A stretch of DNA of 64,000 nucleotides from Escherichia phage MiataMamis, in the sequence record PP925834.1; one strand, 5' to 3'. Shown in pieces: positions 40,780 to 41,804 of this stretch (positions are counted from its first letter, which is position 1; each line of letters begins with the position of its first letter). The position numbers and the translations under genes are program-made. The notes beneath the pieces are model-generated. The model did no database searches. It was not told where the DNA came from and saw only the letters and a program-made list of their open reading frames with translations.

Positions 40780-41043
40780 ATGGCAACAGAGTTAAAATTT
40801 GCATCAAACCGTAAAACTAAGAAGTATCTGTCCTCAGTAGCTCCAGGCACTGTGGTGATGTTTGTTGATGAACTTGGGGATGTGAATACAGCACTTGTTG
40901 TAAAATCACATCCTGCAAACATATATGTTGGGGTATTTGACCTGTTCAGAAAGGTGTTTGTAGAACTACCTCACAGTTTGGTTGTTACAGAAATGGATGC
41001 CTGCATAGAAATTCTTGGCGAAGTTATGGTGGAGGAACAATAA
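40780..41043 (+). CDS. small protein (87 aa), tandem paralog family member A
   Basis: First of four consecutive, similarly sized ORFs sharing N-terminal M(A/T)T.(I/L).F...K.KK...F.CGTVV and C-terminal ..T(E/G)(M/L)D..I.ILGE; SD GGAGG upstream. Confidence 0.7.
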   Translation: MATELKFASNRKTKKYLSSVAPGTVVMFVDELGDVNTALVVKSHPANIYVGVFDLFRKVFVELPHSLVVTEMDACIEILGEVMVEEQ

Positions 41044-41306
41044 TGGCTACTAACATTGTATTCAATTCTAAGGTGAAGAACAAAAAGCGTGCAGACAGTT
41101 TTCCGTGTGGGACCGTGGTAAGTTGCGACGGAGACGGCATTCAAAACATAGTTATGATTGTCAAAACAGGAGAACATTGTGTGTGGGGGTTCGATTTAGA
41201 AAATAATGAGTTGTACGATCTGCCGCCAAACATGAAAGTTACAGAGCTTGACACCAAAATTACCATCCTTGGAGAGACAAGCTATTCAAAAGAAGGAGGA
41301 GAATAA
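41043..41306 (+). CDS. small protein (87 aa), tandem paralog family member B
   Basis: Abuts member A (stop/start TAATGG); shares the family pattern. Confidence 0.7.
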   Translation: MATNIVFNSKVKNKKRADSFPCGTVVSCDGDGIQNIVMIVKTGEHCVWGFDLENNELYDLPPNMKVTELDTKITILGETSYSKEGGE

Positions 41307-41569
41307 TGACCACAAAAATCACTATCGCAGAGCCGAAAGCTAACACTCAGCCTATCGAAAAGTTTAAGTGCGGTGAGGTGGTAACATTCACACCAGATAA
41401 TGAAGATGCTAAGATTTTCGCAATGGTCACAGCTGAGTGGATGTGTGACAACACCACACAAGTACTACGTTTCGATACCTACCTCACAGATGAGATCCGA
41501 AACGATAAGATCGTGACAGGTGTGGACACTGAAATTATTTTCTACAAGAGCTTTTTAGAGGGTTTCTGA
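41306..41569 (+). CDS. small protein (87 aa), tandem paralog family member C
   Basis: Abuts member B; shares the family pattern. Confidence 0.7.
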   Translation: MTTKITIAEPKANTQPIEKFKCGEVVTFTPDNEDAKIFAMVTAEWMCDNTTQVLRFDTYLTDEIRNDKIVTGVDTEIIFYKSFLEGF

Positions 41570-41570
41570 T

Positions 41571-41804
41571 ATGGCAAAAATTCGTAAATTATCCAGCAAT
41601 CAGGTTGTGAAAGACTTTGAATCTGGAGAGATTCTGTATGTTCGTGATGCAGATGACGAAGGTGAAGATCTTGTTATGTTGGTGGGGCACGCTGAGGACG
41701 GATGCATCCAAGCTGTTTTTCTTGAAACAGCTATGGTGCACTGGATAGAGCTGGACTTGAAAGCACGAAAACCTAAAGCAGAAATCCTGATTTACGAAGA
41801 TTAA
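41571..41804 (+). CDS. small protein (77 aa), divergent tandem paralog family member D
   Basis: Same size class and position; weaker similarity. Confidence 0.6.
   Translation: MAKIRKLSSNQVVKDFESGEILYVRDADDEGEDLVMLVGHAEDGCIQAVFLETAMVHWIELDLKARKPKAEILIYED

What the first reader, a model, noticed from the sequence alone, without database searches (positions are those of the whole stretch)
40780..41804. Tandem array of four diverged paralogous small genes
Four consecutive ORFs (87, 87, 87 and 77 aa) abut each other with overlapping stop/start codons and share a conserved N-terminal pattern (M-A/T-T..I.F...K.KK...F.CGTVV) and a C-terminal ..D..I.ILGE pattern, while their central regions differ. 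Tandem duplication with divergence suggests diversifying pressure, as seen for some phage inhibitor families.
Basis: seen in the sequence. Interest (0 to 1): 0.55.

Follow-up and report, generated by a model that had tools for sequence, protein, structure and literature searches.

The report
Four-paralog small-gene array, rV5-like phage
Four neighbouring small genes in this rV5-like E. coli phage are real, anciently duplicated copies of one uncharacterised family of small acidic beta-barrel proteins that the phage does not need in the laboratory; this is an ordinary kind of phage accessory-gene cluster, although this particular family has not been described.

Summary
Window 40780-41804 carries four co-directional, tightly packed genes (87, 87, 87 and 77 aa) in a Vequintavirus (rV5-like) genome. 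All four are homologous. w1 and w2 match by BLASTP (39% identity, E 1e-12). w3 and w4 match only at profile level (hhalign E 3e-7 and 8e-6).

AlphaFold models w2 as a six-strand SH3/Tudor/KOW-like barrel. No Pfam, NCBIfam, PADLOC or PDB sequence match exists. A search of 1.8 billion proteins finds the family only in rV5-like phages.

Copy number varies:
- 0 in other Vequintavirinae genera;
- 1 in three metagenomic lineages;
- 3 in rV5 and 73 other records;
- 4 here and in 42 other records.

The 3-versus-4 difference is a sharp cassette swap. w1+w2 (window 40794-41295) replaces one rV5 ORF14-type gene, between flanks 87-97% identical.

Every orthologue set is under strong purifying selection (dN/dS 0-0.11). 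w3 and w4 are the most conserved genes in the neighbourhood.

Published transposon data for phage Bas54 class its three array genes (one ORF14-type gene and the w3 and w4 orthologues) as non-essential on E. coli K-12.

The likeliest role is early-expressed accessory proteins that bind host or defence factors. That role is inferred, not shown.

The parts
40780..41043 (+). w1: 87-aa family member, subtype A (PHROG 10698). One of the two genes in the variable cassette.
   Evidence: ORF. SD AGGAGG at 40768-40773. phrog_10698 E 7.6e-43. 39% identical to w2, E 1e-12. Present at 90% identity or more in 43 of 117 Vequintavirus records.
41043..41306 (+). w2: 87-aa family member, subtype B (PHROG 10698). 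The second gene of the variable cassette.
41306..41569 (+). w3: 87-aa family member, subtype E (PHROG 12861). Very strongly conserved.
   Evidence: ORF. phrog_12861 E 8.5e-62. Profile homology to the w1/w2 group: hhalign probability 92-93%, E 5e-7 and 2.7e-7; HMM E 3.9e-7 among 1111 ORFs. At least 90% identical in all 117 records. dN/dS 0-0.03. A solo copy with 82% aa identity sits in a distant lineage.
41571..41804 (+). w4: 77-aa, most diverged family member, subtype F (PHROG 12046). Very acidic.
   Evidence: ORF. phrog_12046 E 5.1e-55. hhalign against the 27-sequence profile: probability 84%, E 8e-6, 68 columns. HMM E 1.6e-4, with the next unrelated ORF at 1.3. dN/dS 0-0.11. pI 4.6, charge -8. 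The AlphaFold2 model is poor (pLDDT 53) but its strand order matches that of w2.
40794..41295 (.). Exchangeable cassette: about 500 nt (w1+w2) here. rV5, FV3 and two IMG/VR contigs carry about 230 nt (a single ORF14-type gene) in its place.
   Evidence: blastn identity to rV5, FV3, L004 and L005 runs up to window 40790-40794 and resumes at 41295. There is no detectable nucleotide match in between. Flanks are 86-97% identical. rV5 and FV3 are annotated with three genes here.
39283..40764 (+). Upstream anchor gene: DUF2201_N metallopeptidase-like plus VWA-like protein (rV5 gp12/13 region). Context only, not a family member.
   Evidence: Pfam PF13203 E 4e-28 and PF09967 E 4e-11. In other Vequintavirinae genera this gene is followed directly by the gp17 homologue.
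41821..42270 (+). Downstream anchor gene: 149-aa rV5 gp17 homologue (PHROG 6790). Context only.
   Evidence: phrog_6790 E 6e-58. It is the gene adjacent to the metallopeptidase gene in PVP-SE1, TH18, CR9 and W70. It lies directly after the single family member in L015.
38227..45279 (+). Enclosing co-directional transcription unit (rV5 genes 11-26), ending at a terminator-like hairpin at 45258-45279.
   Evidence: ORF layout. Terminator-like site. The rV5 paper proposes genes 11-26 as one unit, running from bidirectional sigma-70 promoters between genes 10/11 to terminators between genes 26/27 (PMC3606486).

Best explanation
The region is a real tandem array of four old paralogues of one uncharacterised phage protein family. 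The proteins are about 9-10 kDa, acidic and soluble, and probably fold as an SH3/Tudor/KOW-like beta-barrel extended by long N- and C-terminal strands.

The array lies inside the sigma-70-driven gene 11-26 transcription unit of an rV5-like (Vequintavirus) phage. Each gene has its own ribosome-binding site, and w1/w2 and w2/w3 overlap stop and start, so the four are probably co-transcribed and translationally coupled.

The family is confined to rV5-like phages and grew at this locus by duplication and by shuffling of whole genes. I recognise six subtypes: A=w1, B=w2, C=rV5 ORF14, D=the single-copy lineages, E=w3 and F=w4. Each subtype is strongly conserved within itself but only 13-40% identical to the others. 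The first slot exists as alternative cassettes (A+B, or C alone), while w3 and w4 are fixed.

Inferred mechanism (not shown): each paralogue is an accessory, non-essential, early-expressed binder that uses a common barrel scaffold with a subtype-specific surface to bind a different host or host-defence protein. w3 and w4 would hit conserved targets. The swappable slot would hit strain-variable targets.
For: SHOWN
- Phage identity: the window is 97-98% identical to Vequintavirus genomes.
- Homology of all four genes.
- Real coding genes under purifying selection.
- All members are acidic, pI 4.2-5.0.
- Narrow distribution: a full HMMER scan of 1.84 billion representatives gave 7 hits, 6 of them this family and 1 a spurious repeat protein. 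tblastn against 50,697 phage records finds the family only in 117 Vequintavirus records.
- Copy-number series 0/1/3/4 at the same locus.
- Sharp cassette boundaries.
- Shuffling of single genes: a solo w3-like gene (82% aa, 80% nt identity) lies in a lineage whose neighbouring genes are 38-47% identical. A solo C-like gene lies elsewhere in another lineage.
- w3 and w4 are the most conserved genes locally. Against the diverged relative L014 they are 97% and 95% identical, versus 82% for the metallopeptidase-like gene, 60% for gp17 and 54% for the 188-aa gene.
- Dispensability: in HIDEN-SEQ on phage Bas54 (MaxBurger), the array genes bas54_0054/0053/0052 had 17/17, 13/15 and 12/12 TA sites hit and were called 'Non-essential' on E. 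coli K-12 (bioRxiv 10.1101/2025.11.20.689424).
- Transcription unit as proposed for rV5 (PMC3606486).

INFERRED
- The binder or inhibitor role. It rests on small size, acidity, a protein/nucleic-acid-binding fold class, early-operon position, dispensability in the laboratory combined with very strong purifying selection in nature, and the modular gain, loss and swapping typical of phage accessory genes (the last point from general knowledge).
Against: - No target, phenotype or interaction is known.
- In the one clinical-isolate comparison readable in the HIDEN-SEQ tables, the three orthologues were not significantly depleted: log2FC +0.46, +0.33 and -1.32, q 0.68 or higher. No conditional requirement has therefore been seen yet.
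- No match to any known anti-defence, anti-CRISPR or inhibitor family.
- The w4 model is of low confidence. Its family membership rests on profile statistics plus position and length.
- Early timing is taken from gene layout and predicted promoters, not from expression data.
Confidence: 0.55

Rival explanations
1. Arms-race inhibitor family under ongoing diversifying (positive) selection. On this view the paralogues and their alleles are changing amino acids quickly to track changing host targets.
For: - The first slot exists as deeply diverged alternatives, w1+w2 versus the ORF14-type gene, only about 40% identical, between near-identical flanks.
- w1 and w2 diverge much faster than w3 and w4 between lineages: 57-64% against 95-97% identity.
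- Copy number varies.
Against: - All pairwise dN/dS values are far below 1: 0-0.11 within types, about 0.2 for w1 against its L014 orthologue.
- rV5 and FV3 ORF14 differ by 22 synonymous and 0 non-synonymous changes.
- w1 and w2 diverge no faster than the unrelated neighbours gp17 (60% identity) and the 188-aa gene (54%).
- Site-level tests could not be run for lack of intermediate-divergence sequences.
Confidence: 0.15
2. Subunits of one complex rather than independent effectors. The paralogues would assemble into a hetero-oligomer, as Sm/Hfq-type small barrels form rings. Alternatively they would act as adaptors or substrates of the neighbouring VWA-metallopeptidase / MoxR ATPase module. Translational coupling would set the stoichiometry.
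For: - Tight coupling and overlapping stop/start codons.
- The array directly follows the DUF2201 VWA/metallopeptidase gene here and in the single-copy lineage L015.
- The model has long terminal beta strands that could pair between subunits.
- The metallopeptidase-like gene (log2FC -2.20, q 0.009) and a MoxR ATPase gene (log2FC -7.23) are conditionally required in a clinical isolate. w4's orthologue shows a non-significant dip (-1.32).
Against: - Family members occur singly and away from the metallopeptidase gene in other lineages: L023 upstream of the gp11-like gene, L026 next to an NT5C-like gene.
- Arrays of 1, 3 and 4 genes are all viable.
- Other genera keep the metallopeptidase gene with no family member at all.
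- The ORF14-type and w3 orthologues were not depleted under the condition where the metallopeptidase-like gene was.
Confidence: 0.15
3. Minor structural (virion) proteins. This would fit the 'tail protein' label that PHROGs and some records give to the neighbouring gp17 homologue.
For: The gp17 homologue is labelled 'tail protein' in PHROG 6790 and in several records.
Against: - The array lies in the early-type gene 11-26 unit, far from the morphogenesis genes.
- gp14-16 are not named among the virion proteins in the text or the held supplements of the rV5 proteomics paper.
- All three Bas54 array genes (the ORF14-type gene and the w3 and w4 orthologues) tolerate transposon insertions.
- Other genera lack the genes altogether.
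Confidence: 0.03
4. Chance ORFs, or mis-called genes with no shared ancestry.
For: w2-w3 and w3-w4 give no BLASTP hit at default settings.
Against: - Profile statistics.
- Large excess of synonymous over non-synonymous change in every gene.
- Each gene has its own ribosome-binding site.
- All are annotated as CDS in over 100 genomes.
Confidence: 0.01

Closest known systems
PHROGs 10698, 12861 and 12046 (unknown function)
   Same: w1 and w2 match phrog_10698, w3 matches phrog_12861 and w4 matches phrog_12046. All matches are full-length with E 1e-41 to 1e-62.
   Different: PHROGs keeps them as three unrelated families with no annotation. The profile comparisons here join them into one family.
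SH3-like small beta-barrels: Tudor domains, KOW domains, ribosomal protein L2, EF-P/eIF5A domain I, UvrD C-terminal Tudor-like domain
   Different: No sequence-level match to the Pfam KOW or Tudor models or to any PDB chain. The family has extra long N- and C-terminal strands. The resemblance is at fold-class level only and says nothing specific about the ligand.
Small uncharacterised early proteins of N4-like and other phages (for example N4 gp21, 74 aa)
   Same: Foldseek against BFVD lists many 70-90-aa phage proteins with TM 0.55-0.75. They include N4 gp21, which lies three genes upstream of N4's gp24/gp25 pair; gp25 is probably the N4 counterpart of the DUF2201 VWA gene.
   Different: E-values are weak (0.001-0.09). 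There is no sequence similarity to N4 gp21. None of these proteins has a known function.
Tandem paralogue clusters of small accessory or host-takeover genes in lytic phages, such as anti-CRISPR and anti-defence loci or the T4 internal-protein genes (general knowledge, not tested here)
   Same: Small, non-essential, early-region genes in variable copy number, swapped as cassettes between close relatives.
   Different: No anti-defence activity is shown. There is no associated regulator (no Aca-like gene) and no homology to any listed family.

Membership tests
Single w1-w4 paralogue family (proposed here) | Significant sequence or profile similarity among all four ORFs over most of their length | tested here: met
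   w1-w2: BLASTP E 1e-12. w3: hhalign E 5e-7 and 2.7e-7. w4: hhalign E 8e-6 over 68 columns. hmmsearch of 1111 ORFs separates w3 (3.9e-7) and w4 (1.6e-4) from the best unrelated ORF (1.3).
Single w1-w4 paralogue family (proposed here) | The same three-dimensional fold in all members | tested here: inconclusive
   The w2 model is usable: pLDDT 76.5, six strands. The w4 model is poor (pLDDT 53), though its central strands follow the same order.
PHROG 10698 / 12861 / 12046 | Full-length HMM match | tested here: met
   E 7.6e-43, 6.5e-41, 8.5e-62 and 5.1e-55.
SH3-like / Tudor / KOW barrel superfamily | Five-stranded SH3-like barrel topology | tested here: inconclusive
SH3-like / Tudor / KOW barrel superfamily | Sequence match to a curated domain model (KOW, Tudor, etc.) | tested here: not met
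   No such Pfam hit at E up to 10 for any of 27 members. No PDB sequence hit at E up to 10.
DUF1883 (the name one source gives to relative P0071) | Pfam PF08980 match | tested here: not met
   P0071 and 26 other members were scanned against Pfam at E up to 10. DUF1883 was not among the hits.
Known anti-phage-defence or anti-defence / anti-CRISPR proteins | Homology to a catalogued family | tested here: not met
   PADLOC gave no hits. The only Pfam hit of this kind is AcrF2, for 1 of 27 members at E 0.11, i.e. noise. No dedicated anti-defence HMM library was available.
Known anti-phage-defence or anti-defence / anti-CRISPR proteins | Conditional requirement of the gene on a defence-carrying host | tested here: not met
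   Taken from a paper, not a test of mine. bas54_0052-0054 were not significantly depleted in the one clinical-isolate comparison I could read (q 0.68 or higher). Only one host was examined, and only the three-gene array type.
Phage accessory (non-core) genes | Dispensable for lytic growth on a laboratory host; patchy presence among relatives | tested here: met
   The HIDEN-SEQ table calls all three Bas54 array genes non-essential. The genes are absent from PVP-SE1, TH18, CR9 and W70. Copy number ranges from 0 to 4.
Genes under diversifying selection | dN/dS above 1 gene-wide or at sites | tested here: not met
   Gene-wide Nei-Gojobori dN/dS is 0-0.26 in all comparisons. Site models were not run.

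The most novel reading that the evidence does not exclude
The family is a phage-specific 'binder scaffold'. One small SH3-like barrel has been duplicated and re-surfaced into at least six specificities. Each neutralises a different host or defence protein, and the genes are traded singly between phage lineages; w3 moves at 80% nucleotide identity between phages whose core genes share only about 40-47% protein identity. The swappable first slot (w1+w2 versus the ORF14-type gene) would then be a determinant of which E. coli strains a given rV5-like phage can grow on.
Probability: 0.25. Interest if true: 0.6.

Novelty: new member of a known kind. Interest (0 to 1): 0.35.

Why it matters
rV5-like phages are among the most often isolated E. 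coli phages and are used in biocontrol and therapy cocktails, yet most of their early genes have no known function.

Three results make this locus a tractable target:
- Three separate 'unknown' PHROG families turn out to be one fold family with six subtypes.
- Two of the subtypes, w3 and w4, are the most constrained genes in the neighbourhood although dispensable on E. coli K-12.
- One slot is a natural cassette swap.

Natural three-gene and four-gene variants with about 97% identical flanks already exist in the BASEL collection (Bas48 CarlMeissner with four genes, Bas54 MaxBurger with three). A transposon library exists for Bas54.

If the proteins prove to be host or defence inhibitors, they would add a new small-barrel inhibitor family. 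If not, this remains a routine accessory-gene cluster.

Tried and rejected
- Default pairwise BLASTP beyond w1-w2 found nothing. Profiles were needed.
- The nearby 81-aa ORF (42267-42512) looked like a possible fifth member in a first alignment. It belongs to a different PHROG and is not hit by any family HMM. Rejected.
- PVP-SE1 gp217 and TH18 peg3 are small genes lying between the gp11-like and metallopeptidase genes. They aligned suggestively but get no HMM support. Rejected as members.
- Pfam, NCBIfam, PADLOC and PDB sequence searches gave no meaningful hits.
- IMG/VR scans gave only two Vequintavirus contigs.
- N4 gp21 was suggested by Foldseek but shows no sequence relationship.
- A Foldseek search with the low-confidence w4 model hit only its own orthologue. 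Uninformative.
- The afdb50 library was unavailable.
- I looked for DNA repeats that might drive unequal crossing-over. Only one chance-level 21-nt pair turned up.
- The rV5 genome paper and its supplements do not mention these genes or any paralogy.
- The mBio Zorya/Druantia paper and the PNAS anthracycline paper contain nothing on this locus.
- bas54_0063 (MoxR ATPase, an anti-defence gene in HIDEN-SEQ) seemed at first to be the gene next to the array. It lies 8 genes away on the opposite strand.

Full report
WHAT THE WINDOW IS

The 4.5 kb around the finding is 97-98% identical to more than 100 genomes of the genus Vequintavirus, the rV5-like E. coli myophages of about 136 kb. In phage Murica, the rV5 type genome and other records, these ORFs are annotated as consecutive hypothetical proteins.

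CHECKING THE OBSERVATION

- w1: 40780-41043
- w2: 41043-41306
- w3: 41306-41569
- w4: 41571-41804

All are on the + strand and encode 87, 87, 87 and 77 aa. w1/w2 and w2/w3 share one base between stop and start (TAATG). w3 and w4 are one base apart. Each gene has its own Shine-Dalgarno sequence inside the 3' end of the gene before it.

w1 and w2 are plainly homologous: BLASTP gives 39% identity and E 1e-12. w3 and w4 give no BLASTP hit at default settings, so I tested them with profiles.
- An HMM of w1/w2-type sequences scores w3 at 20.9 bits, which 0 of 2000 shuffles reach, and w4 at 6.8 bits, which 4 of 2000 reach.
- hhalign of that group against w3 gives probability 92%, E 5e-7, over 75 columns.
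- After I collected more distant relatives, a 27-sequence profile containing neither w3 nor w4 gave hhalign probability 93%, E 2.7e-7 for w3. For w4 it gave probability 84%, E 8e-6 over 68 of 77 residues.
- In an hmmsearch of all 1111 six-frame ORFs of at least 40 aa in the whole window plus ten related loci, only family members scored. w3 had E 3.9e-7, w4 had E 1.6e-4, and the next ORF had E 1.3.

So all four are paralogues. There is no fifth member anywhere in the 64 kb window. The nucleotide sequences share no repeats, so the duplications are old.

WHAT THE PROTEINS LOOK LIKE

All members are 9-10 kDa and acidic, with pI 4.2-5.0. None matches Pfam, NCBIfam, PADLOC or any PDB chain sequence. 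PHROGs splits them into three unannotated families: 10698, 12861 and 12046.

Foldseek against predicted viral structures finds the family itself and then a long tail of uncharacterised 70-90-aa phage proteins, including N4 gp21. N4 gp21 shows no sequence relationship to the family. The w4 model is poor (pLDDT 53), although its central strands follow the same order as those of w2.

DISTRIBUTION AND HISTORY

The family is very narrow. A full HMMER scan of 1.84 billion representative proteins gave seven hits, six of them family members and one a spurious repeat protein. tblastn against 50,697 phage records finds w1, w3 and w4 only in the same 117 Vequintavirus records.

At the locus itself, between the DUF2201 metallopeptidase/VWA gene and the gp17 homologue, the copy number varies:
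- 0 copies in PVP-SE1 (Seunavirus), TH18, CR9 (Certrevirus) and W70. There the two anchor genes are adjacent.
- 1 copy (subtype D, P0047) in a 124-kb metagenomic relative with otherwise conserved gene order. Its metallopeptidase-like protein is 61% identical to the window's.
- 3 copies in rV5, FV3, MaxBurger and 71 other records.
- 4 copies in the window, Murica, CarlMeissner and 40 other records, and in a more diverged lineage, L012-L014.

The 3-versus-4 difference is a clean cassette swap. Nucleotide identity to rV5, FV3 and two IMG/VR contigs (86-97%) stops at window 40790-40794, 15 nt into w1. It resumes at 41295, at the ribosome-binding site of w3. Between those points, 500 nt here (w1+w2) correspond to about 230 nt there (a single ORF14-type gene), with no detectable nucleotide similarity. 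The ORF14-type protein is about 40% identical to both w1 and w2.

Single genes also move.
- A solo w3-like gene (82% aa, 80% nt identity, with the match starting at window 41293) sits upstream of the gp11-like gene in a lineage whose gp11-like and metallopeptidase proteins are only 38% and 47% identical to the window's.
- A solo C-like gene (61% identical to rV5 ORF14) sits among other small early genes in yet another 142-kb phage.

An NJ tree and identity matrix give six subtypes, A to F.

SELECTION

Nei-Gojobori estimates show strong purifying selection in every orthologue set.
- ORF14-type: dN/dS 0-0.10. rV5 and FV3 differ by 22 synonymous and 0 non-synonymous changes.
- w3: 0-0.03. The window and Murica differ by 17 synonymous changes and 1 non-synonymous change.
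- w4: 0-0.11.

Between the window and the diverged four-gene relative L014, protein identities are:
- w3: 97%
- w4: 95%
- metallopeptidase-like protein: 82%
- w2: 64%
- gp17: 60%
- w1: 57%
- 188-aa protein: 54%

So w3 and w4 are the most constrained genes in the neighbourhood, and w1 and w2 evolve no faster than their unrelated neighbours. dS varies sharply from gene to gene. Between the window and Murica it is about 0.02 in w1 and w2 but 0.41 in w3. Between the window and rV5 it is 0.10 in w3. This shows fine-scale recombination at the gene boundaries.

I found no evidence for diversifying selection. Site-level tests were not possible with the sequences in hand.

EXPERIMENTAL INFORMATION FROM THE LITERATURE

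The rV5 genome paper proposes genes 11-26 as one transcription unit. [quoted passage not shown] The window has a matching terminator-like hairpin at 45258-45279. That paper and its supplements say nothing about gp14-16 or any paralogy.

The HIDEN-SEQ preprint (bioRxiv 10.1101/2025.11.20.689424) mapped gene essentiality in Bas54. From the locus tags I identified Bas54 as phage MaxBurger, a three-gene-array phage.
- bas54_0054 (ORF14-type), bas54_0053 (the w3 orthologue) and bas54_0052 (the w4 orthologue) took insertions at 17/17, 13/15 and 12/12 TA sites. All are classed non-essential on E. coli K-12.
- In the one K-12 versus clinical-isolate resampling table I could read, they were not significantly depleted: log2FC +0.46, +0.33 and -1.32.
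- In the same table the neighbouring metallopeptidase-like gene (-2.20, q 0.009) and a MoxR ATPase gene eight genes away (-7.23) were depleted. The authors report that MoxR gene as needed to overcome a predicted defence system.

INTERPRETATION

Shown: a genus-restricted family of small acidic barrel proteins, expanded in tandem and shuffled gene by gene. It is non-essential in the laboratory yet under very strong purifying selection.

Inferred: the proteins are early accessory proteins that bind host or defence factors. w3 and w4 would serve conserved targets and the swappable first slot would serve variable ones.

The main rivals are a hetero-oligomeric complex or adaptor role tied to the VWA/MoxR module, and a true arms-race family. 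The first is argued against by solo members found in other genomic contexts. The second is argued against by the dN/dS values. Structural-protein and chance-ORF explanations are essentially excluded.

VERDICT

The 'diverged tandem paralogues' reading is right, and the 'diversifying pressure' reading is not supported. This is a new, uncharacterised member of a familiar kind of phage feature, the small accessory-gene paralogue cluster. It is of moderate-to-low general interest but a well-defined experimental target in a widely used phage group.

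Noticed in passing
window 39283-40764; Bas54 genes bas54_0055 and bas54_0063: In the HIDEN-SEQ tables, the DUF2201 metallopeptidase/VWA gene just upstream of the array is significantly depleted in a clinical E. coli isolate (log2FC -2.20, q 0.009). A MoxR ATPase gene eight genes away on the opposite strand is depleted too (-7.23). The preprint names only the MoxR gene as an anti-defence gene. MoxR ATPases usually work with VWA partners, so the two may form one anti-defence module.
   Followed up: partly
window 38227-39270: The 347-aa gene annotated 'anti-sigma factor (Srd-like)', 'anti-termination' or 'HNH endonuclease' in different records has no Pfam or NCBIfam match at all. 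The DUF2201 gene is likewise labelled 'HNH endonuclease' in several records and in PHROG 1314. These labels look like propagated mis-annotations.
   Followed up: partly
L015 6938-7531 and 7577-8128 (metagenomic relative); window 42515-43081: In the single-copy lineage, the 188-aa gene downstream of the array is itself present as two diverged tandem copies, 27-29% identical to the window's gene. Tandem duplication of small early genes therefore recurs in this operon.
   Followed up: no
window 44088-44471; L018 1621-2052; L026 10267-10695; L023 3558-3986: Homologues of this 127-aa gene (56-65% identical) lie directly next to the solo family members in two other lineages: after the C-like gene in L018/L026 and before the w3-like gene in L023. 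This could be a functional link or just a remnant of shared gene order.
   Followed up: no
L015/L016 2119-3258: A TnpB-like gene (OrfB_IS605 / Cas12f1-like_TNB domains, 379 aa) sits just upstream of the gp11-like gene in the metagenomic relative. It has no counterpart in the window.
   Followed up: no
phage database hits to window 39000-43500: Sixteen GenBank records named 'Campylobacter phage' with host Campylobacter jejuni (for example MG065635 C12) match this E. coli rV5-like sequence; C12 is 97.1% identical. The host labels look doubtful.
   Followed up: no
L008 2996-3199 (phage TH18 peg4): A 67-aa protein with paired CxxC motifs (CPFC...CQKC) lies between the gp11-like and metallopeptidase genes of TH18. 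From memory it resembles Lar-type restriction-alleviation proteins. Not tested.
   Followed up: no
window 41306-41569 versus neighbouring genes: Synonymous divergence jumps from gene to gene between close relatives. Between the window and Murica, dS is about 0.02 in w1/w2, 0.41 in w3, 0.14 in w4 and 0.06 in the metallopeptidase-like gene. This points to recombination breakpoints at the gene junctions.
   Followed up: partly
HIDEN-SEQ Extended Data Table 8, sheet 'Data S6': The sheet title says 'resampling_K-12_vs_CFE303', but the recorded command line compares the BW25113 library with '311'. The host strain behind that table is therefore ambiguous. A later part of the file repeats rows with identical values.
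   Followed up: no
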